Source of the DNA: Candidatus Altimarinota bacterium
GTDB lineage: Bacteria; Patescibacteriota; Gracilibacteria; BD1-5; UBA2023
DNA: 64,000 nt
Assembly (NCBI GenBank): GCA_043771825.1
Contig: JAYVGV010000037.1
Coordinates: 14,130 to 78,129, forward strand
Reading direction: 5' to 3'
Below, piece after piece: positions 12,087 through 58,366 of the stretch. How positions within the stretch are numbered: the stretch's first letter is position 1; each line of letters begins with the position of its first letter. The position numbers and the translations under genes were made by a program. The notes beneath the pieces were generated by a model that saw nothing but the letters and a program-made list of their open reading frames with translations, was not told where the DNA came from and ran no database searches.

Positions 12087-12527
12087 TTAGTTTATGGCAG
12101 TGAGGACAACCCAAATAAACCAAGGGGCAATCCATATAAAAATAATTCAGGTAATCACATAAATAATTGTTTGGCGCGCTTTTTTAATCTTTTCTTCATC
12201 ACCTCATCAAGTCATAATCTGTACTCACGCATAAATAATATAGACGACAGCTACAAGTGTGACAAAGCCAAGAAAGTATAATACAGTATCAGTAACATAC
12301 ACGGCTATAGTTTTCTTAGTAAACGTATCTCCAACAGCATTTGAAGTTGCGAGAAGTCCTCAAGAAAGTGTGCAACTACCATTTTGACAATATTCAATCT
12401 GTCCAGGAGTAGGACAGCCAAATCAGAGTGTCCATCATCCACAAGCGGCATAAATAGAGTCCGTAAGGCTTATAAGAGAGAGAGAAGAGACTATGGCTAT
12501 GAGAAGAGAAGAGTATATTTTTTTCAT
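12087..12527 (-). CDS. TrbC/VirB2-like (T4SS-pilin family) small membrane protein
   Basis: ATG 12527 to TAA 12087-12089 (146 aa, seven in-frame TGAs). Signal peptide MKKIYSSLLIAIVSSLSLISLTDSIYA, a Cys-rich loop, then two TM helices flanking VAVVYIIYAGVQIMTGGGDEEKIKKARQTIIYVITGIIFI. That is the hallmark layout of TrbC/VirB2-type pilins common in CPR genomes. Confidence 0.65.
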
Positions 12528-26062: not shown

Positions 26063-26117
26063 TAGCCTTCTCATCGAAGTGACAGTCCCTCTTCGTATAC
26101 TCCTTATTTTTCCTACT

Positions 26118-32100: not shown

Positions 32101-33296
32101 TCGCAAGCTGGGGAACTCCTATCAACTGTACAGCATCTGGAAGTGGGCTCAATAATATTTGTTATGGTACCTTCTCCCTACAAAATAATACTACAGGACA
32201 AAATAATGTCGCCTATGGAAACGAGGCACTCAGAAATAATAACGGAGGAAGTGCGAATGTGTCCCTCTGATATGGGTCTATGTACTACAATACGAGTGGA
32301 TCGAGCAATGTGGGAATCGGTGTATATGCTCTCAATAGTAATACTACTGGTGTTGCGAATGTCGGTATCGGTCCAGATAGTCTTGCATATGCAAGTACAG
32401 TGAGCTATAATATCGCTTTGGGAAGTTCTTCACAGAAAGAAAATAGATCTTGAAACAATAACGTAGCAGTAGGTGCAGAAGCTCTCAGGCTTAACTTCAC
32501 TGGATCCTTTAATTCAGCATTTGGAAATGCAGCAGCTACTCAGATGCAGTCCACTGCAAGTAGTTTTGTAGAATGAAATAATGCGTTTGGAGCCTATGCT
32601 CTCCAAGGAGGAAGTAGTACAGGTAGTCTCAATACTGGATATGCTAATTCGGCATTTGGTAACTATGCCCTTCTCGGAACCACAGGAACTCCGACTACAG
32701 GATTCCAGAATTCAGGATTTGGTAATACTTCTCTTCAGACAGTGACAAGTGGATCCAATAATGTCTGAGTAGGATATGGAGCAGGGAATGGACTCACTTC
32801 AGGATCCAACAATATCTTTATCGGTGCCAATATCGTTCCCGTCTCAAATACTGCTTCAGATCAGCTCTCTATTGGGAACTGGATTTATGGAAGTGGGTGA
32901 AATATAGGTATCGGAGTATCTAGTCCAACACAAAAACTCCACGTGAATGGAAATGTCCTTGCTGATGCATTCCTCTACGTATCTGATGCTCGCATGAAGC
33001 AAGACGTGACAGGTATAGAGAATGCTGATGATATACTCACGAAACTTCAGGGAGTGCGATTTGTCTGGAAAGCAGATGGTCGAGCGGATATAGGATTTAT
33101 CGCTCAGGAAGTAGAGAAGGTACTTCCTGACCTTGTCCATACTGATAGTACTGGCATGAAGAGTGTCGAATATGGGAATATCATCCCAGTTCTTGTCGAA
33201 GGATATAAGTCAGAAAAATCTCGTGCTGATCTACTCGAATCTCGAATGGACACACTTGAGGCCCGACTCCAATCCCTTGAATCTGCTAATAAATAA
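26118..33296 (+). CDS. giant modular tail-fibre-like surface protein 1 (2392 aa) with C-terminal Peptidase_S74 chaperone domain
   Basis: Track ORFs 26715, 28068, 28611, 29448, 29760, 30627 and 32943 are all in the frame of ATG 26118. I read the gaps between them codon by codon and found only TGA. TAA at 33294-33296. Signal peptide MSFFRIPFIVVLLSLSNVAMTG. About seven modules, each ending NQLSIGNWIYGSGGNIGIGTSTPGARLEVAGQVKITGG.PG.GK.LISDATGLASWQT. Four arrays of 17-aa SNTTG..NTANG..AL repeats. C-terminus VSDARMKQDV...RFVWK...IGFIAQEVEKVLPDLV...VEYGNIIPVLVEG plus a coiled coil. Confidence 0.85.
26800..27235 (+). repeat. 51-nt (17-codon) tandem coding repeats, array 1 of fibre gene 1
   Basis: TCCAACACCACAGGA recurs at 26841 and 26892 (51-nt period). 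About 8 units of SNTTGxxNTANGxxAL[YF]. Confidence 0.8.
27294..27485 (+). repeat. 192-nt module-junction repeat, copy A
   Basis: Matches 31920..32111 with 4 mismatches by my alignment. Shorter, related copies at about 28492-28590 and 30525-30645. Confidence 0.85.
28149..28402 (+). repeat. 51-nt tandem coding repeats, array 2
   Basis: About 5 units: ALFSNTTGFYNTANGGSALGSNTTGFYNTANGGIALYSNTTGGWNTANG... Confidence 0.8.
29990..30440 (+). repeat. 51-nt tandem coding repeats, array 3
   Basis: About 9 units: ALQANTTGSNNTANGANALSSNTDGSNNTANG... Confidence 0.8.
30930..31865 (+). repeat. 51-nt tandem coding repeats, array 4 (longest)
   Basis: About 18 units. Almost free of stop codons in several frames on both strands, which explains track ORFs 30937..31908(+) and 30720..31199(-). 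Confidence 0.8.
31920..32111 (+). repeat. 192-nt module-junction repeat, copy D
   Basis: Direct repeat of 27294..27485. The offset is 4626 nt (3 x 1542), so the copies are in the same reading frame. Confidence 0.85.
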
Positions 33297-41589: not shown

Positions 41590-41610
41590 ACTTCTCTAAC
41601 CTTTCTTCCC

Positions 41611-44600
41611 ATGTCTCTTCGTTTTACTGTAGCTCTCTCCCTTCTCTTCTTCTCGTACGCTACGATATCAGTACATGCTCTTGCATATCCTACGACTACA
41701 CCATCTGGAGAAACCACAGGAGGTACATATCGTACGTACTTTGATAATATTTTCCAAGATCTTTGAAGTGACTGTAATCTCAGTGGAAGAGTGATCGGAG
41801 GATTTGATTCTGTATGAGTACCGATATGTGTCACACCAGTTTCTTCAGGATTATTCCTCTCGGGCCAGACGAGTGGTGATACGATTAGATTCGATGGGAC
41901 GCTCTGGGTAAGAAATAATCTTCTCTATAACAATGGTACAGCTATAGGCATAGGTACGACGAGCCCTGCGTATATACTCGATGTTGGTGGAACAGCGAAC
42001 TTCATAGGATTGCGTATGCCGACGGGTGCTGGATCAGGAAGGGTGCTCACTTCGAATGCTGCTGGAACTATGTACTGGGCAAGCTCCATATCTGGTGCCA
42101 CAGCATCGGGTATCACAGGGGGGACACAGAGCTATATACCAAAATTTGGAATCTGATGAAATGGACTTATCCTCTCTCAATTTTTCGATAATGGCACAAA
42201 TATCGGTATTGGTACAACTATACCAACAGCGAAGGTAGATATATCGACTGTAGGAACGGCACCATTCCAGATACGAAGTGGAAATGGAAGTGCATCTTAT
42301 GTGAATAATCAAATACTCTTCTGATGGAATGGGAGTGATGGATATAGACATGCTATCAAGACTCGACACAATGGAGGAGGACTTTCTGATAATGCTATAG
42401 ATTTTTATGTATGGGATCAATCAACAGATGTTTCTACTACTATAGGAACTCGAAGGGTGATGACTCTCGAAGGTGCGAATGGTGGGTCAGTCGGTATAGG
42501 TACCCCTACAATTTCTTCTTGAGCAAGACTCGAAGTGGCAGGGCAGATAAAAATCACAGGAGGCGATTTCTGATCATGAAAAGTACTCACGAGTGATGCC
42601 AGTGGTCTTGCCGCGTGGCAACTGCCAGGAGCAGCATCGAGTGTCAGTGCAACAGGTATTACTGGCGGCTCAGGCTACTATATTCCATTTTTTTGATCCT
42701 GATGAAATGGGCTTTACTCGTCATTCATGTATTTTACATGATGAAAACTAGGGATCAATACTACAAGTCCGACATATATGTTCGATGTACAATGAGATAA
42801 TAGCATTATCCGTGCTTGAAGTGGTTTTTGTCTGGGTATGACAGCATCAGGATGTATCACGAATTGGTCAGATCTGAATAATATGGTGAGAAGTAGTGGT
42901 ACTCCGAATTATATAGCAAAATTTGATACGGGATGACTTATCGGTAATTCGCAATTATATGAAACTGGAGGTAATCTTTATATATGAGATATTCCAGCAA
43001 TTCTTTGAGGAGCAGCTACGATATGATATGTTACTATAGAAGCAAATGGAAGTACAAATTCATCGAATCCATTTCTTACACTTTCTGAAATGTGATGACA
43101 AGAATGTCGTATGTGGATTACTTGAGCGAATAAACTCGGATCAAACTGTAGCTGGAATGCCGGAGGTGGTACATATCAGCCAAATCAAGTCATAAAAGCT
43201 GATACAGCAGGAAGCTCATTGACAGGTACGAATATGTATAATGTAGGACAGTTTGTCGGAATTTGAACTAATAATCCTACTACAACATTGACAATAGACT
43301 CTGGAGTTGATGATGATTCTGGGCTGAGGTTTTCCCGTGTTGATACATCCACACCACTTATCTCAAATGGTGTACTCGCTCTTTGAGTGAATGCTTCAGG
43401 GAAAGTAATACCGATCAGTCCTATTAGTAATATCGCAGTATACAATGGTGTCGATAGAGTAACTGTAATGAGTCCAAATCCTGATCTTAGTACATTTAAC
43501 ATTACCTATGATTTTAATCGGTTTTTTGCTATTCCAGGAAAACAATCATTCGTCGTAAGTAGTGGAGATTCTTCCTCGTATAATGGTCCATATTTTAAAG
43601 AAAACGGTACGAGTGCACTTTGTTCTGTCAATGGTACTTATGGTACAAGTCCATATGATTGTGCTGATCCTGATCCAGCTACAGGTATTTCTGCAAGTCC
43701 ATTTAATTCTTTTACTATGACAGCAAAGGGTGATACATTTGGATATCAGATCGCGCTTGGGGCACGCTGAGATGCTCCGCTTTTTGCTCGAAGTGGTCGA
43801 TATAATGGCTCACAAACAGGCTGACTCTATACCAATGACTCACCTTACCAGACTCCAGCACCATGGCAGAAAGTCCTCTCGCTTCCAGCGCATCATCCTG
43901 AGTATCTCTATATCAATACAGGACTGAGTTCTCAGCTCCAATCTCAAACATGATGATGAAATGTCGGTATCGGTACGACTACACCACAGAGTCGATTCGA
44001 AGTATGGACTGGTTCTACTACGACAGCACTCATACATTTTCGTGGAGTGAATAATGTCGGTATGGGTCTTGGAGCTTCGCGTCCTCAACAGAGTGGAAAT
44101 GCGAATAGTGCATTCGGAAATGAATCATTATTCACTCTGACATCAGGATATTCCAATACTGCTATAGGATATCGTTCTCTTCGTCTTACAGCTGCTGGAT
44201 TCAATAACTCTGCAATTGGACAAGAGGCACTCTATAATAATAATGGTTGAAGCTGGAATACAGCAGTCTGATACCAAAATCTTTATTCTGTAACATCAGG
44301 AACGAGAAATATAGGACTTGGCGCACAAGCTCTCTATAACCTCAGTACATGAAATGATAATATCGCTATCGGATATCAGGCAGCTCGTGTTCTAGCTGGA
44401 AGTGCAATATCCAATAATATTGCCATATGATATCAATCTCTCTACTCTGCTACAACATCAAATCTCCTCGCTATCGGATATCAAGCCCTTTATCATAATG
44501 CATGAGGAATAGCAAATCAATGAGTAGGATATCAAGCATTGTTTTCAAATACGTCAGGAAACTACAATACGGCTGAATGATATGAAGCACTGAGTGCAAA

Positions 44601-47493
44601 TACTACAGGAGCAAACAATACGGCTATCGGATATCAGGCACTTGATACAAACTCTACTGCTAGTAATAATACTGCTATCGGATATCAGGCACTTCTCCTC
44701 AATACAGCATCATCAAATACCGCTGTATGACAACTTGCACTCAGGTCCAATATAAGCTGATGAGCGAATACAGCACTAGGATTAGAGGCTTTATATGCGA
44801 ATACTACTGGCACGAGTAATGTCGCTATAGGACTTCAGACGATGAGCTCAAACTCTACTGGCTGGGAGAATGTCGCTGTATGAAAGTGAGCTATGAGTAG
44901 TATATGATCTGCACCACAAAACAATACAGTAATAGGTACAAATGCTGGAAGATGAGGTGGGACAAGTAGCTCGAATAGCTCGAATAATGTAATTATCGGT
45001 CATACAGCTTGATATGCAATAAATGGTGGAAATAATAATGTATTTCTCGGTACCAATGCATGAAGTGGTATCACAACAGGCTCAAATAATATCGTGATAG
45101 GAAATAATGCTTCACTCGCTTCAAATACTCTCTCGAATCAGCTTTCTATCGGAAACTGGATCTATGGAAGTGGATGAAATATCGGTATCGCGACGAATGC
45201 TCCCACGACGAATCTAGATATCAATGGAACTATACGAATCAGAGGAGGAGCACCTGGTGCTGGAAAGATACTCATGTCAGATGCTGTATGACTTGCCAGC
45301 TGGCAGACGCCGACAGGTGCGGCTGCTATACCATGGGCAATCGCGGGAAATGCTGGTACTGATCCAAATAGTAACTTTGTCGGAACTACTGATAATTTTG
45401 CTCTGACGTTCCGTACAAATAATATCGAAAATATGCGACTTCTCACGAATGGCAATCTCGGTATCGGTACGAGTACTCCTGCATCTCGACTCAGTATATC
45501 ATGAGGAGGATTCTCTGTAGGATACCCTACCAATGCAGCACCGACTGATGGAGCTATAATATCTGGAAATATGGGTATCGGGATTATTTCTCCTTCAGAA
45601 AAGCTCACTGTCAATGGTACTATAGAGAATCCTGCTGATAATAGCGCTATCGTATCCGGAAATGATCGGGCACTAGGATTTATCAAAAAAAGTGGACTTA
45701 TAGCTCAAGTATCAACGAACAATGTGAATCCAATAATTTTCTCAAAACTGAGTACTGCAACTATTACTTCAGCAAATGTAGCAGGATGAACTCTTACAGA
45801 ACTCATGCGTATACAAAATAATGGTGATGTCGGTATCGGTACAGCTGCTCCATGAGCACGACTTGATGTGGCAGGACAAGTAAGAATAACTGGTGGATCT
45901 CCTGGACTTGGGAAGATCCTCGTTTCTGATGCTACGGGTCTTGCGAGTTGGGAGACTGCTGCGACTGGATCATTTGCTGGATGGTGAGTCCTCGGAAATG
46001 CAGGAACTACTGCTACGACGAACTTCCTCGGAACCACAGATAATGTCGATCTCGTAATCCGTACGAACGCTACTGAAAAAGTGCGAATCCAAGCAGGATG
46101 AAACGTCGGTATCGGTACCAATAATCCTTGAGAGAAACTTGATGTGCTCGGTAATATCCGTGCTGGAACTGCTACTCCAAACACCATGATGGGAACACAT
46201 CCATCGTATGGAAATACCTATTCAGCTTGGTGGAAGTCTGGACTTGACTATTCTCTTCTGACGGATGCTACTCATACGTATCTCAATGCTCCACAAGCAA
46301 CATGAAATATCCATTTCCGTACAGCAAATACAGATAAGATGTTCCTGCGTGGAAGTGATGGGAATGTCGGTATCGGTAATACAGCTCCATGAGCAAGACT
46401 CGAAGTCACATGACAAGTGAAGATCACTGGTGGTGTTCCAGGGGCTGGGAAAGTCCTCACTTCCGATGCTACGGGTCTCGCGACTTGGGTACTTCCGACA
46501 CTGAGCTTCACAGGTGGTACGACGAACTATCTCACAAGATGGACATCAGCGAGTACTCTCGGTATAGGAGTGACATTTGATAATGGTACAAATGTCTGAA
46601 TTAATACTACTTCACCTGCGTCTAGACTCGATGTCAATGGTAATCTCGCAGTACGATGAGATGCAGGAGGGTCTATCTATACATGGAATGGGTGAGACAC
46701 AAGTTGGAGATGGGGAACCTCCAACGTTCCATGATATGCTCGATTTATCGCAACAGGGTACAATCAATTTGCAATTTTTGGTGCTGCAACAGGAAACGGA
46801 TTCTCAGTATGAGATGCGAGTACAGGGCTTTCCGCATTTGAAGTGACGAGTTCTTCAAATGCATATAAATCATACTTTAGATGAAATGTCGGTATCTGAG
46901 TTGATCCGACGCAGTCTCTCGATGTGACTGGGCAGATACGTATACGAGGAGGCTCTCCATGAGCTGGGAAGTATCTCGCTTCTGATGCGAGTGGAGTAGG
47001 GACATGGACGACGCCAGCAGGAAGCCAGACGGGTACGTATATCTATCGTATGGCGACACCACAAAGCTCTACCAATACGACTCTTGCATGAGTGACACAG
47101 CTTACCAGTACGCCACTCCCAGTATGACCATATCAATTCGAAGTGCTAGGAAGATTCCAGTCAGCTGCAGCGAATACTGGTCTTGGTCTTACTCTTGCTC
47201 AGACAAGTGGTGCAAGTACAAATTTCATGGGAACTATGAGTGCACAGCTGACAAATTCTACGATGTATAGCGAATCATTTATGGTCCAATGAACTGCAGT
47301 GACGACTACAGGTGTTCCTCTAGCAAATACAGATTACATAGTGATGATGAGAGGATCATTTGATATCACGGCTACTGGTACAGTAGCGGTACGGATGGCT
47401 ACAGAAAATAATGGTACTCAGGTCATCCTCGGTGTGTGAACTGCACTCATCATCAAGTCACTTGATCCAAATATAGCAGGAGGAGGTATATAA
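41611..47493 (+). CDS. giant modular tail-fibre-like surface protein 2 (1960 aa), no S74 domain
   Basis: ATG 41611, 21 nt after the partner gene. I read every line to TAA 47491-47493 and found no TAA/TAG but many TGAs, including TGATGATGA at 43951-43959. The N-terminus is paralogous to fibre 1 (AYPTTTPSGETTGGTYRTYFDNIF vs SYPSTGPAGSYSGGSFGTYLQNLI). Recurrent N[VI]GIGT..P...L[DE]V.G...I and GG.PG.GK.L.SDA.G.A.W junctions. Distinct beta-rich C-terminal domain. Confidence 0.85.
44090..45130 (+). repeat. degenerate coding repeats (NTAIGYQAL type) in fibre gene 2
   Basis: Series of SGYSNTAIGYRSL, FNNSAIGQEAL, NDNIAIGYQAA, SNNIAIGYQSL, ANNTAIGYQAL... units, many with TGA-encoded Gly. Related to, but more diverged than, the NTANG arrays of fibre 1. 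Confidence 0.7.
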
Positions 47494-47541: not shown

Positions 47542-49347
47542 TTATCTTCATATTTTTTTCCGTGCGAATTTTTCTCTTATGCGTCTTGCTTCTGCGGCTC
47601 AAAGTTTTTCTTCGAGAACCATATTCATCTCTCATTCGGCATCGAAGAGAGACATATCTAGAGATATTCATTTCTCTTTTTTATAGCGATAGTCTTCGTA
47701 GTTTCCATAAGAGAGAGTGAGCTCACTCTCTTCTATAATCCAGAGTTTATTCGCGAGCTTATTTACGAAGTATCGATCATGAGAGATAAAAAGTATGGAT
47801 CCCTCATATACTTGTAGTGATTTTTCGAGTGCTTCGCGAGTATCATAATCAAGATGATTCGTCGGCTCATCGAGGATAAGAAGATGGTAGGGTTTTTGGC
47901 CCAGTAGAGCAAATAAAAGACGAGATCGCTCTCCTCATGAGAGTCCAGATACTTTTCTCTCACCGTCATGATATCAGAACCCATATGACTTGAGTATAGA
48001 GCCAATCCGCTCTTTCGAATAGATGAGTCCATGAGAGATGAAGTTCTCTTCTATGGAGCTTCAAGGAGAGAGGGATTCATGCATTTGAGAGTAGTATCAT
48101 ATCCGTATCGTTTTTGCTATACTCAGATATCATTCGAGGATTTTGAGCTTCGGTGTCATCATTGGATGTGGGAAATCTTGCTTATCTTTTTCGTCTAGTA
48201 TGTCCCTTTTCATCGACATGACAGGAATTTCATCATCTGGGAGGCTTGAGAGGATTGTTTTGATAAAAGTACTTTTTCACACACCATTTTCTCCTATGAT
48301 ACCGATCCGCTCATGATTCCCGAGAGTAGCATTTCGAATATAAAAAAGGGGATCATCCCGGCCGATAAAAGCATCCTCAATTTTTATGAGTGTCTCAGGT
48401 GATCTCTCTTTTGGGAGATCAAATGAGAACTTGATTTCATCAGGAATGAGAGGTTTTTCTATGAGTTCTATACGTTCTAGCATTTTTTCTCGACTTTTCG
48501 CGAATCCTGCACGTGATCCTGCACGAAATCGGTTGATAAGACTTTTTTCACATTCCATCATCGTCTGCTGTTCCTCATAGTCCTTAGCTGATATGCTTCT
48601 CTTATGGAGCTTATCTTCCACAGAATCAGAATAATCACCTACAAAAATGTCTATCCCATTTGGACCATTGATTTCTATCACTTTCGATACAGTCTGATCG
48701 AGAAACTCTCTGTCATGTGATACGATCATGTAGCCTCATTTCCATGTTTCTTTTAGGTACTTTTCGAGCCATTCTACACTTGATAGATCTATAAAATTTG
48801 TCGGTTCATCAAGGAGGAGAAATTCTGGTTTTGAGAGCAGTGTTTTTGCAAGCGCTATCTTCGTCCTCTCTCATCCAGATACTGCTTCAAGAGTACGATC
48901 AAGGAGATGGAATATGCCTATACCCCGAGCAACTTTCTCTATCTCACCATTATAGGTATATCCTCCTATCATTTTATATTTTTCTATTGCTTCTGTGTAT
49001 GCCTCATACTCTCATGTTTCTTCGAGGATTTTCTCTTCTTTCTGGATTATTTGTTCCAGGATGCGTATATCGATATAAGCATCTTGAAGCTCATTTTGTA
49101 CGCTTTTTTCTTCATCCATGAAGTGTATCTGTTCGAGATACCCGAGAGTCATATTTCCGATATTCTCGATAGTTCCAGTATATTCAGTGATACGTCCTGA
49201 TACTACTCGGAGAAATGTCGATTTTCCCACACCGTTGGGTCATACGATAGCTATACGGTCAGTTGCATTGATGATCGTATGGATATTACCTATGATAGCT
49301 TCACCGTCGACTTCATAGGTATCGATATTGATATTGAGATGTTTCAT
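47542..49347 (-). CDS. ABC-F family ATPase (translation-factor type, two ABC domains)
   Basis: ATG 49347 (internal M of track ORF 49240..49482). Track ORFs 49012..49230 and 48277..48729 are in the same frame. Walker A IV[TGA]PNGVGKST, signature LSG[TGA]ERTKIALA, LLLDEPTN. Second domain GIIGENGVGKST..., LSGGERSRLLFA, LILDEPTNHLD. TAA 47542-47544. Confidence 0.9.
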
Positions 49348-49498
49348 AGAAGTATTGAGAGAGTTCTTACATGCTATTCTAGGGAGAAATAAGAAAAAAT
49401 GAAAAAATTTTTGACTTTCCCCCATACTTTCATAATATGCTCTTCGTTCTTCGATGAGTATTCTTCTAAAAACACTCATCACGAGTACATGTATATAT

Positions 49499-49573
49499 TC
49501 CCCGATAGCTCAGCGGTAGAGCAACCGGCTGTTAACCGGTAGGTCGTAGGTTCGAATCCCACTCGGGGAGCCA
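49499..49573 (+). tRNA. tRNA-Asn (GTT anticodon), CCA encoded
   Basis: Cloverleaf: acceptor TCCCCGA/TCGGGGA, D-arm GCTC-AGCGGTA-GAGC, anticodon arm ACCGG-CTGTTAA-CCGGT, T-loop TTCGAAT, 3' GCCA. A TTGACT element at 49411-49416 may be its promoter. Confidence 0.9.
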
Positions 49574-49590
49574 TTTTCAACTTTCAGCAC

Positions 49591-49624
49591 AAAAGAGCAG
49601 TTCACTGAACGGCTCTTTTGTTTT
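49591..49624. terminator. bidirectional terminator shared by tRNA-Asn and hsdR
   Basis: AAAAGAGC-AGTTCACTGAACG-GCTCTTTTGTTTT hairpin. Overlaps the hsdR stop codon (49623-49625). Confidence 0.55.
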
Positions 49625-52574
49625 ATAGTTTTTCCTTGAGTTTCTCAGTTACCATCTTATCGAGATACCTGATGAGGTGATCTTGGAAGTCACCATTGTC
49701 ATGATAGTTATTATAAAATTCCAGATGATCATCGACATTGATAGTGAGCTTTTCATCGAGGAGTTTCTTGAATTCGAGTTTCCTATTCGCCCTATCTGTC
49801 TGAAGTGAGTCGATCATTCGCGGATCTCATACGATCTCATCAGAAATATCAGAAATCATTTTTTTGACACTATCCTCACTACTGAAGTTGGTTCCAAATC
49901 GGGTATTGAACTCAGTGACGATATGTTCGAGAATATCTGAGGGAGCATCACCTCCAGAGCCTTTCAGAGTTGTCGGCATAGGCTCTATCTCACTATCTTC
50001 AGCAAGACTGATCCGAGCGTTTGAGGTCAATTTCTCATTGCGATAGGATCCAACCTCTATGGCACCCAGTACATCTTGACTTATCATGGTCTCTTTTGAC
50101 CCGAGTTCGATGATTTTCTTGTTCAGGATCTTCAGAAATTGATGCAACTCTTCGAATTCAACTACTTCATAGTTCACTATTTGTGATATAAAACTATAAA
50201 ACTTCGTATATGATTTTGCTTTATCCTTGAAGTCATCGATTTGGTCGACTGGGAGCTTGCGGAGATTTTCGACGACACTATCGAGTAGGGCGTGGAGCCT
50301 CTCGACTGGCACTCAGCTGAGTATATCTGTGGCAAATTTGTTCACGACATAGGTATCGTATACGCCGAAGGCATCGAGAGTATCCTTGAGATCGTGGAGC
50401 TTGTTTGGATCACTTGCTTTGGAGAGTATCGTAGTCTTGTAGTACGGCTCAAATGAAGACTGAATATCATCCTCAGTATTATAGAAATCCAATACAAAAG
50501 TACTCTCCTTATCCTTGTGAATACGATTGAGTCGTGAGAGTGTCTGTACGGCATTGACTCATCCGAGCTTCTTATCGACATACATCGTCTGGAGGAGTGG
50601 CTGATCGAATCCTGTTTGGAATTTGTTGGCACATATGAGTATCTGATAACTGCCATTTTCGAACTCATCAGGGATCTTACTGGAGCTGAATTTATTGATA
50701 TTTGACTCATTCCAATCAGTGCCATCGAGATTCACATCTCCAGAAAAAGCCACGATGACAGCGAGCGGGAGATCTTTTTGCTTGATAATCTGCTTGAATG
50801 CGAATCCATACTTCACCGCACTCTTGCGACTTCCACATACGACCATCGCCTTTGCTTTGCCTCCCACAAGTCACTTGAGATATACCTGATGATAAAAATG
50901 ATCGAGCATCACCTCAGCCTTGATCTCTATCGTTGCACTATGTGTCTCTACGAACCCTTTGATTTGCCTATTCGCTCTTTTTTTATCATATTCTCGATCC
51001 TTATCTCCTGTGATAGCGAGCTCATAGTAGCTCTTGTAGGTGGTGTAATTGCGTAGGACATCGAGGATGAATCCTTCTTCTATAGCCTGTTTCATTGTAT
51101 AGTTGTGGTAGGCTCGATATTTGCCGTCTTCTCATCTCACTCCGAATATCTCCAAGGTTTTGTTCTTTGGAGTCGCTGTGAAGGCAAAATAACTCGCATT
51201 CGGGAGCATCTTGCATGCCTGAAGAGTATCGAGAACTATATCTTCATCCGTCATCGGATCTGTAGTATCATCATCAGTTGTACTCATCGTCTCATTCATC
51301 TTCCCTATGGTCTCTCAGCTCGTACTGGAGTGAGCCTCATCGATGATGATGGCGAATTTCTGTCCAGAGAGTTCACCTATAGTATCGACTATCATCGGGA
51401 ATTTTTGTATCGTGGTGATGATGATCCTCTTGCCACTTTCGAGAGCTTCTTTGAGTTGTTTGCTCCCATCGGTGATCGCCTCTACGAGTCCACGAGTATG
51501 ATCGAATCCGCTCACTGTATCTCGGAGCTGTTTATCGAGTACCTGACGATCCGTGATGATGAGGATACTATCGAACACATTGGTCTTGCCATCTTCCCGA
51601 TAGAGTCCTGCGAGAGAGTGAGCGAGCCATCCGATAGAGTTACTCTTGCCACTTCCTGCACTATGTTGGATGAGATATTTTTGACCTGTTCCTTTTTCTC
51701 TGGAGTCTTGCAACAACTGATTCACGACAGTGAGCTGATGATAGCGAGGGAATATCAGCTTCCTGACTTTTTTATCTCACTTTTTCTCTACGATGACCTG
51801 AGCAAAGTCTCGGATCAGTTTCGAGAGATTCGACTTGGTGAGGATCTCTTGCCACATATAACTCGTACGCATCCCATCTGCGACAGGGGGATTCCCCGCT
51901 CACTCATCGAATCATCGATTGAACGGGAGAAACCAAGTCTTGTCATCCTCAAGACGAGTCGTCATATAGACGAGCTCTGTATCCATAGCAAAGTGAACCA
52001 GGCATCTCTCGAATCTGAAGAGTTCCTCTCGACTACTACGATCCGTCTTGTATTGGTCGATAGCATCCTTCACTGTCTGTCCTGTGAGGAGATTTTTGAG
52101 CTCCAGAGTGACGATAGGGAGTCCATTGATGAGGAGTACCATATCGACAGACTTGTTATTCTGAAGGCTAAAAAATAACTGACGAGTGACAGTGAAACTA
52201 TTGGCTTCCCAGAGAGTCGCAAGATCCGCATTGAGGGATGAGTTCGGCTCAAAGCAAAAGAGCATAATATGCGAATCACGATCCTTGACTCACTTTCGCA
52301 TCACATTGATGATTCCTTTTTCTGTGATCTCTTTCTGCACTCGCTGGAGGAATCGGATCTGATAATCCTCTCCATAGTTGACTCGGAGTTTCTCGACTTC
52401 TCGTGGCTGTGTCCGCTCGATGAAGTCCCAAAATGCTACGAGATCGATACACTCCTTGCGATCATAGTGACCCAAGTGATCTCCACTATAGAACTTCTGG
52501 ACGAATCCGTTGCTCTCTATGAGCGTGTCTGTAAAAAGTTGTTCGAATCCTGATTCGCGAATATTGGTAGACAT
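49623..52574 (-). CDS. hsdR: type I restriction enzyme, R (helicase/nuclease) subunit
   Basis: Seven track ORFs (52290..52574 down to 49623..49817) are in one frame joined by TGAs; I checked the gaps. Motifs: QHSAGSGKSNSIGWLA, IIIDEAHSSTSG (DEAH box), FAFTATP, ANKFQTGFDQPLL. 983 aa, TAA 49623-49625. Confidence 0.92.
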
Positions 52575-52591
52575 AAGTTTGAATAATTAGT

Positions 52592-53017
52592 TTATTGGAG
52601 TAGGTCAATAATCTTGAGTTGAAGACTTTCGTTATAGGAATCTTCATAAATAATTGAAGTGATTATTTCCAATAGATTATCTTGATTTATTTTATTATCT
52701 GCTACTGCTACGGCTATATTTTCCATTTCACAGATGAATTTTTCTACACAATAATCATAGCCATTTATCTCCAGAAAATATGCACCAAGAACAATCGATG
52801 ATCTTTTATTTGCATCTTCAAAGGCGTGGTTTTTATTTACAGAAAAAACAAGCTTGGTAAGCTTCTCCTCAAAACTAGGGTAGTAGTCATCATTTTGTAG
52901 CGTAGATAATGCAGATTCCAGATTTCAAATTTCTTTTACTCCTGGTAGTCATCAGCTTATCTCAAGAATCTTATCGTGTTCCCTGATTGCGTGAGTAATG
53001 TCGAAATAAATAGTCAT
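52592..53017 (-). CDS. doc: Doc-type Fic-domain toxin (death-on-curing family)
   Basis: ATG 53017 to TAA 52592-52594 (141 aa). ILEISGGLPGVKEIGNLESALSTLQ followed by NKNHAFEDANKRSS, which fits the Doc motif HxFx[DN][AG]NKR. Three in-frame TGAs, all plausible Gly. Confidence 0.8.
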
Positions 53018-53020
53018 ATT

Positions 53021-54025
53021 TTATCTATCTTTAAGGCGAATAAATACATCTTTATGTTCTTCTATTCTTTCTTCTAAGGTTTTACTCCTTTCTCAGAGAA
53101 ACTTCTCAAAGTCATCTCTTGGTATCGCTCGTATATATTCAGCAAGCTTCTCGTGTAGAGCATCACGGAAATGTATGTCTCTACTTGCCATTTTCATCCT
53201 TGCAGTTTCCAAGTAAGGCATTTGTGACGGATGATTTGAAAATTCTTCAAATATTCTATCTACTTCTTTTGGGGTAAGTCTTCTCTTTTGCTTCTCTGAC
53301 TCTTTTTTGAGTTCATACGCAAGACCAGTCTCATAAGATGATATTGTTGTGAGAACTTCACTATACATAGTTTCTCTCAGATTTTCTTTTTCAGAAAGTC
53401 GCAAGATAGCTTTATATTCACTGGCATCTTCCCGAAAAATACTTTCATAAATTCGATTTGTATAGATCGCATATTTTATGTTACCCATAGCCACATAATG
53501 ATCGAGAGCATCTGTAAATTCTTTTCTACACGAATGATCTCTTACGGCTGCTATGAGATAATCCTCCTCTCTTTGATTTATATACTTTGTGTTTCATCCT
53601 ACCTTTTCATAAATTGTATCGAGGACAATATCCAGCATTATCTTTCTCATCTCTCTTGCTCTTTCGCTTTCTACGAGGAGCATTCAGATATTGAGAAATG
53701 ATCGAAAATCAAACAATCATAGTACTGTGGTTTTGGTAGCGACATCAATGTCGGGACCAAACAGGTTTTTCGCATCAGAAAGCCTTTTCCCCGTAAGGAT
53801 TTCATACCCATTTTTGCGAAGTTCACCATCGTTTTGCTCCAGGTATCGCTCCAATGTTCGCTCATCTACTTCATAGAAGTCAGCGACTTGTTTTTTGGTA
53901 AATCGGTATGATCCTTCAAAGAGAATACCCATAATACCTATATGTTCTTGGATTTTTTCCAGAGCATAAGTATTATTGAGGATATTTGCACGGTCGATGC
54001 GGGAGTTCGTAAGATCTCGGTTCAT
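53021..54025 (-). CDS. HTH-containing protein upstream of doc (334 aa; antitoxin position, function unknown)
   Basis: Track ORFs 53717..54025 and 53093..53494 share a frame joined by TGAs. TAA 53021-53023, 3 nt before the doc ATG. N-terminal FTKKQVADFYEVDERTLERYLEQNDGELRKNGYEIL is HTH-like. Family not recognised with confidence. Confidence 0.6.
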
Positions 54026-54041
54026 ATAAATAATGCAAAGG

Positions 54042-55337
54042 TTATGAGATAGAGAGCTTGCCTGTCACTGCCTGATAGATGAGGCTGGTACGATATTCTT
54101 CGATGAGAGTGATTTCTTGTTCTATTTTATATATGGCAGAATCAATTTGAAAGGCTTCCTTTTTAATATATTCCACAATCGATTCTTGAGTTATGATAGA
54201 GGGAAGAATAAAGTAAGAGTTTTCAAATTCAGTTGTTGATAATTCTTGGAAAGTTGTTCATTTTCATAAACTTTGCAAGTATTCGTTATATGCAATAAAA
54301 TGAAAATATACATATTGATATATCACTCTTGAATTAACAATAAAAGCTTTGCATCCTTGATTTGTACACATATCTTTGGTAGTTATACCAAGCGATCATA
54401 TAGGTGCCCTACAACTCAAAATGATTGAATTCTTAGGTACAATAGTAGTACCACAATTTTCTAATCAAAGTTTTGTAATTTTTCGTCCTGATTGATACAA
54501 ATTTGGATCATCTGAATTTCCTAAATCCGTTGGAGTTATCCAATCAATATCTCAATCCCAATAATCTTTTTCTGAACTTGAAGGAGTGGATCAATTGATA
54601 ATTTTCCCAGTATATTTTAGTTTTAAAATTTCCCAATCCTCAGGAATCTCTCAGATCCACGGGATTTCACTATCTTTCATCTTCGCATTCTTATCTATTC
54701 CTTTCGTGACAGCTTGGTGGATGATAGATTGTTTTTGCTCTTTGAGGAGGTCGATGAGCTTTTTCTTGTTCGATATGAGAGTCGATATTTTCTCAGTTTT
54801 TGCGTCGAGGAAGTGGGCGATGGTGGATTGGATGAGGAGAGGTGGAGAAATAATCAGTCCGTTATCGATACTGAATTGATTGAAAATTTTTGCACCATAT
54901 ATATTCTCATTTGCATTGCTGTCAAAATAAGATTGCAGTGCGTAGTACCAAAAATCAAGATTGAGTCAATCTCTTGGTAATATTGCGAGTATTGCCTCAT
55001 TGGTGTAGGTATCCTCTGAGACGAATGCAAGTTGTCAGACTGATAGTTTGAAACTATAGAGAAGACTTCATCTTGGAACTATTCGCATATTTTTCTCCTT
55101 GATAGCAAGAGCAGATATTTTATTCTTTGATTCTCCTGTATATCTTCCACTCATATCAGAAATAGTGATCCAGTTGTATCCATTTTCATCATAGTACGAT
55201 CCCTTTCAGCTATCTGGAGTTCCTCCAGTTACATACTTGAAAACAAATTTCAATTTCTTCACTTCCCAATCCTCAGGTATCTCTCAGATCCAAGGAATAT
55301 TTGTTTTTTTGAGGGATGTTTTAGGAGAGTGGGTCAT
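54042..55337 (-). CDS. hsdS: type I restriction-modification specificity subunit
   Basis: ATG 55337 to TAA 54042-54044 (431 aa). I read every line: about 17 TGAs and no TAA/TAG, which is why the track shows nothing here. Duplicated IPWIGEIPEDWE[VI] at the start of each target-recognition half. TNQGCKAF. C-terminal EEYRTSLIYQAVTGKL. Confidence 0.88.
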
Positions 55338-55342
55338 AGTGA

Positions 55343-56194
55343 TTATTGAGCAAGTTGTTTGATATGTTGTATAGAGAGATTTTTTTCGAGTGTGATTTTT
55401 TGCTGTTCTGCGATTTCCGAGAGGATACCTGCGCGTTCTTCTTTTGTTTTCCCTTCATCGATAAATCGAGCATTGAGCGTCTCCATATTCGAGAGGATGA
55501 TGAGATCAGTGATGTCTGCTATATCTCGCATATTGAGTCATTGTTTTGCCTCTGTTTCATTTTCCTCCTCCCATTGTTTAGCAGTTTTCCCCCAGAGTAT
55601 CATATTGAGCATATCTGCTTCGTTCGCATATATGAGACCCTCTTGCCATTGTTTGAGATTTTTCCCTTCGAGTTTCTTTGCTATCGCATGAGTATGGATA
55701 CGATAATTTGTTTTGGAGAGGCTTCTTTTTATCTGCCATTCGAGAGATTGAGTCGTGGTTTTTTCGAGCTCTTTGAGTCTCTGAAATTCTTTGATGAGAT
55801 AGAGCTTGAACTGTGGAGAGAGCCATGTAGCAAACTCCATTGCGATATCCTTGTGAGCAAAAGTACCACCGTATCTTCCTGCACTCGATCGAATACCGAT
55901 AGCATTGACAGCATTGATCCATCGTGACGATGATACGACAAAACCATTGGTTCCAACTTCATTTTTAATCTTACTGAATTCCGTAAGATTAAAATCGGGA
56001 TTATATATTTCTTCCCAAGTTCATAAAAACTCAACAGTATACTTGGTTGTGAGCCAATGAGCGATAATGAGACCAGTATCTTCTCATTTGAATCGAGCCA
56101 TATCAGTGAGACAAATGAAATCGTCGTCATTCTTTCCGATATTTATATGTATCGAAATATCTTTCACTTGTACGATTTTTATTGCTTTTGTCAT
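55343..56194 (-). CDS. KilA-N domain-containing protein
   Basis: ATG 56194 to TAA 55343-55345, includes track ORFs 55538..55840 and 55343..55531. DDFICLTDMARFKGEDTGLIIAHWL...AGRYGGTFAHKDIAMEFATWLSPQFKLYLIKEFQRLKE is a typical KilA-N signature. Confidence 0.75.
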
Positions 56195-56208
56195 ATATCA
56201 TGGAAAAA

Positions 56209-57951
56209 TTAAGAGATAATATCTCGGAGAACTCCCTCTGTTTCTTCTTCGAGAGCGAGTATATCTTTCGTGATGTCTTCGAGACTTCGGGGTGGAGTAT
56301 ATTCGTAGAAGTATTTATTGAAGTTGATCTCATATCATACCTTCGCTTCCTTGTCACTGATCCACGCATCGGGGGCAAATGGGAGGACTTCTCGTGCGAA
56401 GTATGTCCCTATATCTTCTTTGAGTGGGATATTTTCCTTGTCTCGGAGATCTGCATCTGGTTCTGGTTTTCACTTTTTGCTGATGACATTGCCTCCCTCA
56501 TCTCGACGAGGTCGTTCGACAACGACCTGAGTGTATCCGAAGTCTTCATTATCGAATACCATAGAGTATTCTGAATCAGTGAATGTATCAAATAGTGAGT
56601 ATATCTCTTGGATATGTTTATCTCGTATTTCACTTCTCTTCTTTCCGAGGCTCTTCGTCATCCGCGAATAGAACTCGCTACTTGTTGCATTGATGAGCTG
56701 GATTTTTCATTTTTTGTGAGCGGGTTTGCGGTTGGTCAGTATCCAGATATATGTCCCGATACCTGTATTGTAGAAGAGCTCTTTCGGAAGTGCGATGATG
56801 GCTTCGAGATAGTCATTCTCGATGATATGACGACGGATCTCACTCTCACCACTTCCTGCATCTCCAGTAAAGAGAGCAGAGCCATTGTGCACTGAAGCAA
56901 TACGAGTTCCGAGAGGTGTATCGTGCTTCATCTTCGAGAGCATATGGAGGACAAAGAGGAGTTGTCCATCATTGATACGAGGAGTTCCGACTGAGAATCG
57001 TGGATCGAGGATTTCTTTTTTCTTCCCATTGGCGAGCTTGTCTTCATCGGTTTTCCAGGACTTACCGTAGGGAGGATTGGTCAGGATGAAGTCGAACCTA
57101 TCATCAGGGAATCCGTCGTTCGAGAGTGTAGAGCCAAATGCAACCTGATTATCTCGTTCTCACTTGAGGAGCATATCTGCCTTACAGAGAGCATATGTCT
57201 CAGGATTGATCTCTTGTCCAAATGTGAATATATTGGCAGTTGAGTGGATCATACTCTCATCTCATTGGATGAATTCTTTGGCAACGGAGAGCATACCCCC
57301 ACTTCCGACACACGGGTCATAGATAGAGAGTGGCTTATTTTTTATCTGATCTTGCACTGGGAGGAATAGGAGATTGGTCATTAGTCGGATCACTTCACGA
57401 GGTGTGAAGTGCTCTCAGGCTTCTTCGTTGTTTTGTTCATTGAACTTGCGTATTAGCTCTTCGAATACATATCCCATATCGTGATTGGAGAGATTTTTCG
57501 GAGAGAGCTTATCGCTGGCATCAGAGAACTTCTGGATCAATGCGAAAAGAATATCTGACTCTTCGAGCGTCTGGATCTGATTTTCGAATTTGAATTTCTG
57601 GAGTATATCTTGGATATTGGAGCTATATCCATTCAGATACTGCTTGAAATTGGATCTCAGATTGGGTGCATCCAAGAGAAGAGTCTTGAGTGTGAATGGG
57701 GAAGTATTATAAAAAGCATATCCCGTAGCTCGTTCGAGAATCGGCTCGATATTGGTGATCTTATTTTTGAACTTCTCATTTTCAGCAAGTACCTTGTCTT
57801 TGGTATCGATGAGCTCACTATCGATGCGAGTGAGGACAGTCATCGGGAGTATGACATCACGATACTTTCATTTTACATATATATCTCTGAGAATATCATC
57901 AGCCACTTGCCAGATGAAATTCACTATAGTCGAATTGTTCTGAGAGGTCAT
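56209..57951 (-). CDS. hsdM: type I restriction-modification N6-adenine DNA methyltransferase subunit
   Basis: ATG 57951. Track ORFs 57415..57843, 56707..56943 and 56470..56661 are in one frame joined by TGAs. Motifs: NFIWQVADDILRD, GEHFTPREVIRLM, YDPVCGSGGML, FILTNPPYG. TAA 56209-56211. Confidence 0.92.
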
Positions 57952-58254
57952 AAAAAACAGGTAATAGAGATAGTGGATGAGAATTAAAGTATTGAACATC
58001 TCCTTACTTACAATTTTATCATCTGAAATTTGTGAAAGTATATAGATATTACGATTTTCTCCAAGCTCTATTTTGGCTATAGAGAGATATACGAGAGTTC
58101 TTTTCCTTGAAATCGATACCCTTCTTTATATACTACATTTTGTAAAAGCTCCTTCACTCATCGATGAGTCTCGAATAATCTTCCAAGATTCGTGATGTCA
58201 TCCCTATATTTCGTTCGAAATAGATCTGCAAGGGGGTGCCATAGGTTTTAAGCC

Positions 58255-58281
58255 AAAAAACGCATAAAGATGCGTTTTTTT
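58255..58281. terminator. strong hairpin with flanking A/T runs in the hsdM-metG divergent spacer
   Basis: AAAAAA-CGCAT-AAAG-ATGCG-TTTTTTT. Confidence 0.5.
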
Positions 58282-58366
58282 AATACGAGTCCAGAATTCA
58301 AATAAATTTATCTCCATAAGTACATTTGTTTTTCTTATAAGTCCAGCTATACTAGCTCAAATATAT

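What the first reader, a model, noticed from the sequence alone, without database searches (positions are those of the whole stretch)
49623..57951. Type I R-M operon interrupted twice: hsdM - kilA-N - hsdS - HTH protein - doc - hsdR
Six co-directional genes are separated by 3-17 nt gaps: 56209/56194, 55343/55337, 54042/54025, 53021/53017 and 52592/52574. That spacing suggests one transcript. A KilA-N DNA-binding protein sits between M and S. A Doc kinase-type toxin with a 334-aa HTH partner sits between S and R.

The layout recalls the prr locus, where the PrrC anticodon nuclease is embedded in a type Ic R-M system and acts as a backup when phage blocks restriction. The embedded Doc pair could be a comparable second-line abortive-infection module wired to the R-M complex. 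The block lies between tRNA-Asn (49499-49573) and a spacer containing a terminator (58255-58281), which is consistent with an acquired defence island.
Basis: partly seen in the sequence, partly recalled or inferred. Interest (0 to 1): 0.7.

Follow-up and report, generated by a model that had tools for sequence, protein, structure and literature searches.

The report
Restriction operon carrying two embedded passenger cassettes
This is an intact type I restriction-modification operon from a Gracilibacteria-like genome (TGA read as glycine) with two widespread passenger cassettes nested between its genes, an arrangement already described and catalogued, so it is a tidy example rather than a discovery.

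Summary
Six co-directional minus-strand genes (hsdM, KilA-N gene, hsdS, 334-aa gene, doc, hsdR) are separated by 14, 5, 16, 3 and 17 nt. They are intact only if TGA is a sense codon. TGA falls on conserved glycines, so the code is 25 (Gly), not Trp.

Both inserts are already catalogued as PADLOC "phage defence candidates": the KilA-N protein as PDC-S22, and the 334-aa protein plus Doc as PDC-M59A/B. These models were built from genes embedded in RM/BREX/DISARM systems (Payne et al. 2024). Doc and RhuM-like genes inside R-M operons, with the PrrC analogy, were described in 2013 (Anantharaman et al.).

The 334-aa/Doc pair is an obligate, tightly coupled two-gene module: Doc followed in 75 of 75 metagenome loci with room. 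It is mobile and autonomous. About half of well-flanked loci (14 of 27) lie inside type I or type III R-M operons. The rest stand alone, and further copies sit in a prophage and in satellite phages.

The most likely function is a toxin-antitoxin-like or abortive-infection module that rides in the R-M operon, not one physically wired to the Hsd complex. Novelty is low: a new member of a known kind. No experimental test of the pair turned up in the papers I could search.

The parts
56209..57951 (-). hsdM, type I methyltransferase subunit (580 aa; code 25)
   Evidence: Pfam N6_Mtase 1.7e-63 and HsdM_N 3.2e-20. PADLOC MTase_I 1.1e-248. Motifs DPCVGSGG and NPPYG are visible in the translation. The ATG at 57951 fits profile position 2; public gene calls use the ATG at 57999 (596 aa).
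55343..56194 (-). Embedded cassette 1: KilA-N domain protein (283 aa), PADLOC candidate PDC-S22
   Evidence: Pfam KilA-N aa 15-142, 2.5e-19. PADLOC PDC-S22 9.5e-109 over the full length. phrog_2657 'transcriptional regulator' 4.5e-47. 7982 of the 8000 scored candidates are homologues (scoring cap), some stand-alone. Absent from the orthologous operon in L009.
54042..55337 (-). hsdS, specificity subunit with two target-recognition domains (431 aa)
   Evidence: Pfam Methylase_S, two stretches, 6.4e-43. PADLOC Specificity_I 9e-106. Internal 52-nt direct repeat 54614/55247. Only 39% identical to the L009 orthologue and 71% to strain variant L095, while the neighbouring genes are 79-100% identical.
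53021..54025 (-). Embedded cassette 2, gene A: 334-aa conserved DNA-binding-type protein (PADLOC PDC-M59A), putative antitoxin/sensor of Doc
   Evidence: PADLOC PDC-M59A 3.2e-114 over the full length. No Pfam family above threshold; ORF6N below threshold in 12 of 30 homologues. More than 5381 homologues, 55-60% identical across phyla, with 52 invariant columns. AF2 model of homologue P0025 (pLDDT 74): N-terminal winged helix plus a helical body. Foldseek finds phage KilA-N/antirepressor/Bro-type proteins (E down to 1.5e-08) and a weak DdrC match.
52592..53017 (-). Embedded cassette 2, gene B: Doc (Fic-fold) toxin, 141 aa (PADLOC PDC-M59B)
   Evidence: Pfam Fic 2.1e-09. TIGR01550 DOC_P1 50.4 bits, above the 38.65 cutoff. 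PDC-M59B 8.3e-30. Aligns with solved P1 Doc structures 3k33/3dd7. Follows gene A in 75 of 75 metagenome loci with room, with gaps of -8 to +5 nt in 74 of them.
52802..52828 (-). Doc catalytic motif H64-A-F-E-D-A-N-K-R72
   Evidence: Matches the Doc-type HxFx(D/E)(A/G)NKR motif and aligns to HIFNDANKR of P1 Doc. Coordinates are derived from the translation.
49623..52574 (-). hsdR, restriction/translocase subunit (983 aa)
   Evidence: Pfam HSDR_N, SWI2_SNF2, ResIII and T1R_D3-like. TIGR00348 hsdR 6.7e-67. Walker A AGSGKS and the DEAH box are visible.
49589..49621 (.). Bidirectional terminator-like hairpin between the hsdR stop and tRNA-Asn
   Evidence: 16-nt arms, 94% complementary (I5). dG -17.2 (minus strand) and -17.6 (plus strand) kcal/mol, z about -4.5, with no shuffle folding as well.
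49499..49573 (+). tRNA-Asn (GTT), convergent with hsdR; flank, not part of the system
   Evidence: ARAGORN. Rfam tRNA 69.9 bits. No second copy of its 3' end in the window.
58255..58281 (.). A/T-flanked hairpin in the 416-nt divergent spacer between hsdM and the class I aminoacyl-tRNA synthetase gene; function unknown
   Evidence: Sequence seen. dG -10.7 kcal/mol, z -3.2. No Rfam family, T-box included.

Best explanation
The region is an apparently functional type I restriction-modification operon (hsdM-hsdS-hsdR) in a genome that reads TGA as glycine (Gracilibacteria-like). It carries two independent passenger cassettes at its gene junctions.

Cassette 1 (M-S junction) is a KilA-N DNA-binding protein of the phage regulator/antirepressor class. 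This slot is variable: related and unrelated operons carry other genes there.

Cassette 2 (S-R junction) is a self-contained two-gene module.
- The downstream gene encodes a Doc toxin. By analogy with phage P1 Doc it would phosphorylate EF-Tu and stop translation (inferred).
- The upstream 334-aa protein has a winged-helix DNA-binding head on a highly conserved helical body. Its position and tight coupling to doc suggest it keeps Doc silent and autoregulates the pair, releasing Doc when infection or loss of the element disturbs it (inferred).

The module is mobile. It inserts into type I and type III R-M operons, most often just upstream of the nuclease/translocase gene, and it also lives alone or on prophages and satellites. 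Embedding gives co-transcription and co-transfer with the R-M system, providing a second defence layer and/or stabilising the island. It probably does not act through a physical link to the Hsd proteins.

Shown here: gene identities, intact motifs, obligate A-Doc pairing, mobility, and the link with R-M operons. Inferred: toxicity, the EF-Tu target, the antitoxin/sensor role of the 334-aa protein, and any anti-phage effect.
For: - Gene identities and intact motifs.
- Both inserts match PADLOC defence-candidate HMMs over their full length. Those models derive from genes embedded in BREX/DISARM/type I R-M systems.
- A-Doc pairing: Doc follows gene A in 75 of 75 metagenome loci with room, with gaps of -8 to +5 nt in 74 of them. 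This is the upstream-antitoxin/downstream-toxin layout of type II TA systems.
- R-M association: of 27 loci with at least 3 kb on both sides, 10 are adjacent to Hsd genes and 4 lie between type III-like mod and res genes.
- Autonomy: stand-alone pairs in L008, L010 and L011 and in 11 further metagenome loci. The pair sits next to the integrase of Streptococcus satellite phages and behind type III mod-res in an Ilyobacter prophage.
- Cassette mobility: in L003 the pair is 61% and 50% identical while HsdM/HsdR are only 23-26% identical.
- Vertical co-inheritance in close relatives: in L009, HsdM is 86%, A 86%, Doc 79% and HsdR 82.5% identical. The M-S slot there holds a different 154-aa gene.
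- Operon structure: the gaps are too short for a promoter plus terminator. No terminator-like site lies in any gap, and site counts are at chance level. A strong hairpin follows hsdR.
- Prior proposals of multilayer defence by Doc or RhuM genes in R-M operons: PMC3710099.
Against: - No experiment on this pair turned up in the searchable library.
- Payne et al. listed the two-gene cassette (414 instances) as 'Reject' and kept only a three-gene version as PDC-M59. The third gene is missing here. Mapping their family numbers to A and Doc is my inference from the PADLOC model names.
- The 334-aa protein is far larger and far more conserved (52 invariant columns) than a usual antitoxin. It has no Phd/YefM similarity, so a plain antitoxin role may be too simple.
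- Internal promoters within coding sequence cannot be excluded, and sigma-70 consensus scans may not apply to this lineage.
- The preference for the slot directly 5' of hsdR/res could reflect a functional link that this explanation plays down.
Confidence: 0.6

Rival explanations
1. PrrC-like wiring. The 334-aa/Doc pair is held inactive by, or monitors, the type I enzyme. It fires when a phage anti-restriction factor blocks restriction, acting as a dedicated backup to this R-M complex.
For: - The pair occupies the S-R slot used by prrC (own knowledge of the prr locus).
- 14 of 27 well-flanked loci are inside R-M operons.
- In most R-M-embedded examples the pair lies immediately upstream of the translocase/nuclease gene, HsdR or type III Res.
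- The A model shows a weak structural match to the DNA-break-binding protein DdrC.
Against: - About half of well-flanked loci have no R-M neighbour, and satellite-phage copies sit beside an integrase only.
- Host R-M systems are unrelated (type I families 23-26% identical, plus type III) while the pair stays 50-61% identical. A conserved protein-protein interface is therefore unlikely.
- The pair also occurs between M and S, upstream of M, and after Res.
- The DdrC match has TM-scores of only 0.26-0.40.
Confidence: 0.15
2. Pure addiction or hitch-hiking. The pair is a selfish toxin-antitoxin module that stabilises whatever mobile DNA carries it (R-M islands, prophages, satellites) and has no role against phage. 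R-M gene junctions are simply tolerated insertion sites.
For: - NCBI annotation names the Doc gene a type II toxin-antitoxin system death-on-curing family toxin; the upstream-partner/downstream-toxin layout and overlaps are TA-like.
- The pair is found on a prophage, on satellites and in housekeeping neighbourhoods.
- Payne et al. rejected the two-gene cassette as a defence candidate.
Against: - About 50% direct embedding in R-M operons, always co-directional, is far above what random insertion would give.
- Cargo next to a satellite integrase is a typical place for defence genes (own knowledge).
- The partner protein is unusually large and conserved for an antitoxin.
Confidence: 0.25
3. Regulators of the R-M system. 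The KilA-N protein and the 334-aa protein are DNA-binding controllers that time or tune hsd expression during establishment, in the manner of C-proteins, with Doc as an accessory.
For: - Both proteins have DNA-binding domains of the phage regulator/antirepressor class.
- RM-linked repressors do exist, for example RptR (PMC12255303, listed).
- A palindrome lies at 55963-55994 and a hairpin in the hsdM upstream spacer.
Against: - Both families occur often without any R-M genes.
- The KilA-N gene is absent from the orthologous operon in L009.
- The 334-aa protein is always paired with Doc, not with Hsd genes.
Confidence: 0.1

Closest known systems
PADLOC phage defence candidates PDC-M59 (A/B) and PDC-S22 (Payne, Hughes, Fineran & Jackson 2024, 'guilt-by-embedding')
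   Same: Full-length HMM matches: PDC-M59A 380 bits, PDC-M59B 102 bits, PDC-S22 361 bits. The basis for discovery is the same: genes nested in type I R-M operons.
   Different: PDC-M59 was defined from a three-gene cassette seen 46 times. The two-gene version seen here (414 times) was marked 'Reject'. None of these candidates appears among the seven systems tested in that paper.
Phage P1 Phd-Doc type II toxin-antitoxin system
   Same: Fic-fold Doc with an HxFxDANKR motif, aligned to P1 Doc structures 3k33/3dd7. The partner gene lies immediately upstream and is tightly coupled.
   Different: The partner is 334 aa with a winged-helix head and a conserved helical body. It has no Phd/YefM similarity; Phd is about 73 aa (own knowledge).
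prr locus: PrrC anticodon nuclease inside the EcoprrI type IC R-M system
   Same: An accessory toxin nested between hsdS and hsdR, proposed as a backup when restriction is blocked.
   Different: PrrC is an ABC-ATPase/HEPN RNase and is almost exclusively embedded in type I R-M. Here the toxin is a Doc kinase with a separate partner, and the pair is often free-standing or in type III operons.
RhuM and RhuM-Doc fusion proteins in R-M operons (Anantharaman et al. 2013; PADLOC PDC-S05 and PDC-S23)
   Same: Doc and a DNA-binding-type partner in R-M neighbourhoods. A RhuM gene occupies the M-S slot in L004. PDC-S23 joins a RhuM N-terminal region to Doc. The multilevel defence hypothesis is already published.
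   Different: The 334-aa protein does not match Pfam Virulence_RhuM. There is only a weak N-terminal profile similarity (hhalign E 0.016). The two functions are on separate genes here.

Membership tests
Type I restriction-modification system | HsdM with an N6-adenine methyltransferase domain and HsdM N-terminal domain | tested here: met
   PF02384 1.7e-63 and PF12161 3.2e-20. PADLOC MTase_I 1.1e-248.
Type I restriction-modification system | HsdS with two target-recognition domains | tested here: met
   PF01420, two stretches. Internal repeat 54614/55247.
Type I restriction-modification system | HsdR with an N-terminal nuclease domain and SF2 translocase motifs | tested here: met
   PF04313, PF18766, PF04851 and PF22679. 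AGSGKS and DEAH are present in the translation.
Type I restriction-modification system | Methylation and restriction activity | not testable with these tools
   Needs methylome data or a restriction assay.
Doc (Fic-fold) toxin | Fic/Doc domain scoring above curated cutoffs | tested here: met
   PF02661 38.5 bits (cutoff 24). TIGR01550 50.4 bits (cutoff 38.65).
Doc (Fic-fold) toxin | Doc-type active-site motif HxFx(D/E)(A/G)NKR | tested here: met
   H64AFEDANKR72 aligned to HIFNDANKR of P1 Doc.
Phd-Doc type II TA system | Phd/YefM-family antitoxin encoded upstream | tested here: not met
   The upstream gene is 334 aa with no PhdYeFM_antitox hit even at E<=10.
Phd-Doc type II TA system | Toxicity, neutralisation by the partner, and EF-Tu phosphorylation | not testable with these tools
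   Requires expression experiments.
PADLOC PDC-M59 | Genes A and B present and adjacent | tested here: met
   PDC-M59A 3.2e-114 and PDC-M59B 8.3e-30, 3 nt apart.
PADLOC PDC-M59 | Third cassette gene (FAM_00939) after Doc | tested here: not met
   The gene after doc is hsdR. The three-gene definition comes from Table S8; mapping of the family numbers is inferred.
PADLOC PDC-S22 | Single gene matching the model over its full length | tested here: met
   9.5e-109, residues 1-280 on profile positions 1-275 of 281.
PrrC-type R-M-dependent abortive infection | ABC-ATPase plus HEPN anticodon nuclease | tested here: not met
   No such domains in any of the six proteins.
PrrC-type R-M-dependent abortive infection | Near-exclusive embedding in type I R-M operons | tested here: not met
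   Only 10 of 27 well-flanked loci are adjacent to Hsd genes; 4 are in type III operons; 11 have no R-M gene in the locus and 2 have only non-adjacent Hsd genes.
RhuM family (PF13310) | Match of the 334-aa protein to the Virulence_RhuM model | tested here: not met
   No hit for the window protein or for 30 homologues at E<=1. Only hhalign E 0.016 over the N-terminal 80 columns.

The most novel reading that the evidence does not exclude
The 334-aa protein is not a simple antitoxin. It is a conserved DNA-state sensor (winged-helix head, DdrC-like/antirepressor-like body) that licenses Doc-mediated translation arrest when the neighbouring ATP-dependent restriction motor is stalled or inhibited, or when its cleavage products appear. 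This would explain why the pair sits preferentially just upstream of hsdR or type III res in unrelated R-M systems. It would be a generic 'restriction-failure alarm' usable by both type I and type III enzymes.
Probability: 0.12. Interest if true: 0.65.

Novelty: new member of a known kind. Interest (0 to 1): 0.3.

Why it matters
The locus illustrates the 'defence genes nest inside defence operons' rule in a candidate-phyla-radiation bacterium with an altered genetic code. It also brings out a very widespread module (more than 5000 homologues found, 55-60% identical across phyla): a 334-aa partner plus Doc whose function is untested and which a major catalogue set aside. If the pair proved to be an abortive-infection system, it would add a Doc-kinase-based defence with an unusual large sensor/antitoxin. 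For annotation, TGA here must be recoded to glycine, not tryptophan. Several database homologues carry Trp where other homologues have Gly, consistent with TGA having been read as Trp.

Tried and rejected
- Table 11 ORF calling fragments the region. Table 4 (TGA=Trp) gives full ORFs but puts Trp at conserved Gly positions; rejected in favour of code 25.
- The KilA-N model was too poor (pLDDT 56) to search by fold.
- RhuM membership of the 334-aa protein was tested and not supported.
- Profile-profile comparison of the 334-aa and KilA-N families was not significant (hhalign E 0.22). The only statistical hint of a shared C-terminal module is the phrog_2657 cross-hit (E 5e-4).
- A T-box or other known RNA in the hsdM/aaRS spacer: nothing near threshold.
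- An att-type repeat of the tRNA-Asn 3' end: none.
- The promoter/terminator consensus scan gave counts at chance level: 34 promoter-like sites against 27.6±4.3, and 5 terminator-like sites against 6.2±2.6. It missed both hairpins.
- The HEPN guess for the 154-aa gene in L009 rests only on an RxxxxH motif; there is no Pfam or PADLOC hit.
- The PDB sequence search for the 334-aa family found nothing meaningful.
- An empty-site test for island insertion (orthologous aaRS/tRNA-Asn junction without the operon) was considered. It was not run because the collection scans were exhausted.

Full report
**1. The observation**

Under the standard bacterial code the region 49.6-58 kb contains only short ORFs. 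Treating TGA as sense gives long ORFs across the whole window.

| Gene | Coordinates (minus strand) | Length |
|---|---|---|
| hsdM | 57951..56209 | 580 aa |
| KilA-N gene | 56194..55343 | 283 aa |
| hsdS | 55337..54042 | 431 aa |
| 334-aa gene ("A") | 54025..53021 | 334 aa |
| doc | 53017..52592 | 141 aa |
| hsdR | 52574..49623 | 983 aa |

- The gaps between stop and next start are 14, 5, 16, 3 and 17 nt.
- The recoded amino acid is glycine, not tryptophan. All seven TGA positions in the 334-aa and KilA-N proteins align with Gly as the commonest residue in homologues, while TGG aligns with Trp at most positions.
- TGA also falls in classic Gly positions: HsdM (EEAgEHFTPREV), HsdR (DEAHSSTSg) and Doc (ISggLPG).
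- The closest public relative of the 334-aa gene is a 'Candidatus Gracilibacteria' MAG (88% identity). The window therefore comes from a code-25 lineage.
- Several database homologues carry W at these columns, consistent with TGA having been read as Trp.

**2. Gene identities**

- Pfam, NCBIfam and PADLOC agree on HsdM, HsdS (two TRDs) and HsdR, with the expected motifs.
- The M-S insert has a KilA-N domain (aa 15-142). It matches PADLOC PDC-S22 over its full length (9.5e-109) and phrog_2657 'transcriptional regulator'.
- Doc passes the curated cutoffs of Pfam Fic and TIGR01550. It aligns to solved P1 Doc structures and has an intact H64AFEDANKR72 motif.
- The 334-aa protein has no Pfam family but matches PADLOC PDC-M59A over its full length (3.2e-114). 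Doc matches PDC-M59B.

**3. Ends of the operon and flanks**

- A strong hairpin at 49589-49621 (dG about -17 kcal/mol, z -4.5) lies between the hsdR stop and the convergent tRNA-Asn. It is the likely terminator for both.
- tRNA-Asn is genuine.
It lies in the 416-nt spacer between divergently oriented hsdM and a class I aminoacyl-tRNA synthetase gene (Pfam tRNA-synt_1g/1e). It does not bound the operon, and no Rfam family matches it.
- There is no repeat of the tRNA 3' end and no integrase in the flanks.
- GC content is unremarkable at 0.34-0.46, against about 0.40 for the window.
- Consensus promoter and terminator counts are at chance level, and none lies in the five gaps. One transcript is plausible but unproven.

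**4. The 334-aa/Doc pair is an obligate, mobile two-gene module**

- The 334-aa family is large (more than 5381 hits) and unusually conserved: 55-60% identity across Ignavibacteria, Bacteroidota, Gammaproteobacteria and CPR lineages, with 52 invariant columns.
- In 80 metagenome loci fetched with a family profile, a Doc gene follows in all 75 with room. The junctions are -8 to +5 nt in 74 of them.
- The 27 loci with at least 3 kb on both sides break down as follows:
  - 10 are directly adjacent to Hsd genes;
  - 4 lie between type III-like mod (N6_N4_Mtase) and res (ResIII plus endonuclease) genes;
  - 11 have no R-M genes in the locus, their neighbours being housekeeping, uncharacterised or other non-R-M genes (for example HipA, DprA);
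  - 2 have Hsd genes in the locus but not adjacent.
- Stand-alone pairs also occur in Larkinella and in two further genomes that likewise read TGA as sense (A proteins 68-79% identical).
- The pair sits next to the integrase of Streptococcus satellite phages (annotated 'CiaB protein'). It also sits behind type III mod-res inside an Ilyobacter prophage.
- Within R-M operons the commonest position is immediately upstream of the nuclease/translocase gene. M-[pair]-S, [pair]-M and Res-[pair] also occur.

**5. Evolutionary behaviour**

| Locus | HsdM | A | Doc | HsdR | HsdS | Other |
|---|---|---|---|---|---|---|
| L009 (relative, different chromosomal neighbourhood) | 86% | 86% | 79% | 82.5% | 39% | M-S slot holds an unrelated 154-aa gene instead of KilA-N |
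| L003 ('Altimarinota' genome) | 26% | 61% | 50% | 23% | 24% | cassette has moved between unrelated type I systems |
| L092 (metagenome contig) | 100% | 100% | 100% | 100% | 100% | L093, L094 show the same gene order and gene lengths |
| L095 (strain variant) | 100% | 99.1% | 100% | cut off by the contig end | 71% | differs mainly in hsdS |

- Identities are; contexts are.
- The L009 operon lies in a different chromosomal neighbourhood.
- Other operons carry RhuM or NYN genes in the M-S slot.
- KilA-N homologues also occur away from R-M genes.

**6. What the 334-aa protein looks like**

- An AF2 model of homologue P0025 (pLDDT 74) shows an N-terminal winged helix-turn-helix and a long helical body.
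- Below-threshold ORF6N/HTH hits recur in 12 of 30 homologues.
- Foldseek against viral models returns KilA-N, antirepressor, Bro and repressor-domain proteins (E down to 1.5e-08). TM-scores are low, probably because the relative orientation of the domains differs (my inference).
- The best PDB match is the DNA-damage response protein DdrC, and it is weak (TM 0.26-0.40).
- Residues 167-233 hit phrog_2657, the same family that covers the whole KilA-N protein. The direct profile comparison is not significant.
- RhuM membership was tested and not met.
- PADLOC PDC-S23 is a RhuM-N/Doc fusion. A DNA-binding head joined to Doc is therefore a recurring theme.

**7. Mechanism**

Shown:
- intact R-M genes;
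- an intact Doc catalytic motif;
- obligate and tightly coupled pairing;
- mobility;
- enrichment in R-M operons.

Inferred from established knowledge of P1 Phd-Doc:
- Doc phosphorylates EF-Tu and arrests translation.
- The upstream partner neutralises and autoregulates Doc.
- Disturbance by infection, or loss of the element, frees Doc.

The autonomy of the pair argues against a dedicated physical link to the Hsd complex of the kind proposed for PrrC. The unexplained preference for the slot 5' of hsdR/res keeps a sensing link as a minority possibility.

**8. Comparison with the literature**

- Anantharaman et al. 2013 (PMC3710099) described Doc and RhuM-like genes in R-M neighbourhoods. They proposed multilevel defence by analogy with PrrC.
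- Payne et al. 2024 systematised 'guilt-by-embedding' and produced the PDC models that match here.
- Their table lists the two-gene cassette (414 instances) as rejected and the three-gene version (46 instances) as PDC-M59. The third gene is absent here.
- Of these PDC names, only PDC-S22 appears in the searchable library, in one genomic survey (Streptococcus suis); no experimental test turned up.

**9. Verdict**

The 'embedded second-line module' idea is reasonable but already published, and the specific claim of wiring to the R-M complex is not supported. This is a new member of a known kind, and interest is modest.

Noticed in passing
whole window; e.g. 49623-57951: The genome reads TGA as glycine (code 25, Gracilibacteria/Absconditabacteria type). 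Several close homologues in public protein collections carry Trp at these positions, consistent with TGA having been read as Trp.
   Followed up: yes
window 49344-49605 (minus strand) versus tRNA-Asn 49499-49573: Public gene calls for the downstream ABC-F ATPase (687 aa, starting 18 nt after hsdR) run across the tRNA-Asn gene and the terminator hairpin. A typical ABC-F N-terminus (MKHLNINID...) begins near 49344, so the real gene is probably about 87 codons shorter.
   Followed up: partly
window 58255-58281 (spacer 57952-58366): An A/T-flanked hairpin (dG -10.7 kcal/mol) lies in the divergent intergenic region between hsdM and the class I aminoacyl-tRNA synthetase gene, about 85 nt upstream of the synthetase start. 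It has no Rfam match (T-box included). Leader/attenuator, operator or small-RNA terminator remain open.
   Followed up: partly
window 55963-55994: A 16+16 nt near-perfect palindrome (TTTTAATCTTACTGAA/TTCCGTAAGATTAAAA) with no spacer lies inside the KilA-N coding sequence.
   Followed up: no
L095 versus window 54042-55337: A strain variant is 99-100% identical in HsdM, KilA-N, A and Doc but only 71% identical in HsdS (439 aa), with a 337-aa A protein. This suggests recent recombination replacing a specificity domain.
   Followed up: partly
L009:8227-8691, L003:6395-7401, L004:2104-2652: The M-S junction is a variable slot. A 154-aa protein with no family match (has an RxxxxH motif), a NYN-domain gene plus a 107-aa gene, or a RhuM gene occupy the place held by KilA-N in the window.
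   Followed up: partly
L001, L003, L004, L009, L012, L016, L023, L028, L035, L037, L038, L040, L060, L061, L069, L079, L086, L091: In most R-M-embedded copies the 334-aa/Doc pair sits immediately upstream of the translocase/nuclease gene (HsdR or type III Res), in unrelated R-M systems. The reason for this slot preference is unexplained.
   Followed up: partly
L098 (Streptococcus satellite phage Javan742) 5995-7451: Full-length homologues of the pair (about 50% identity) lie next to the integrase of pneumococcal/mitis satellite phages. There the 334-aa homologue is annotated 'CiaB protein', probably a misnomer.
   Followed up: partly
window 26007-33296 (+), 41590-47493 (+), 6952-12183 (-): Three giant ORFs (2430, 1968 and 1744 aa under code 25). 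For the 1968-aa ORF, the public call of about 1960 aa in L092 has no Pfam hit.
   Followed up: no
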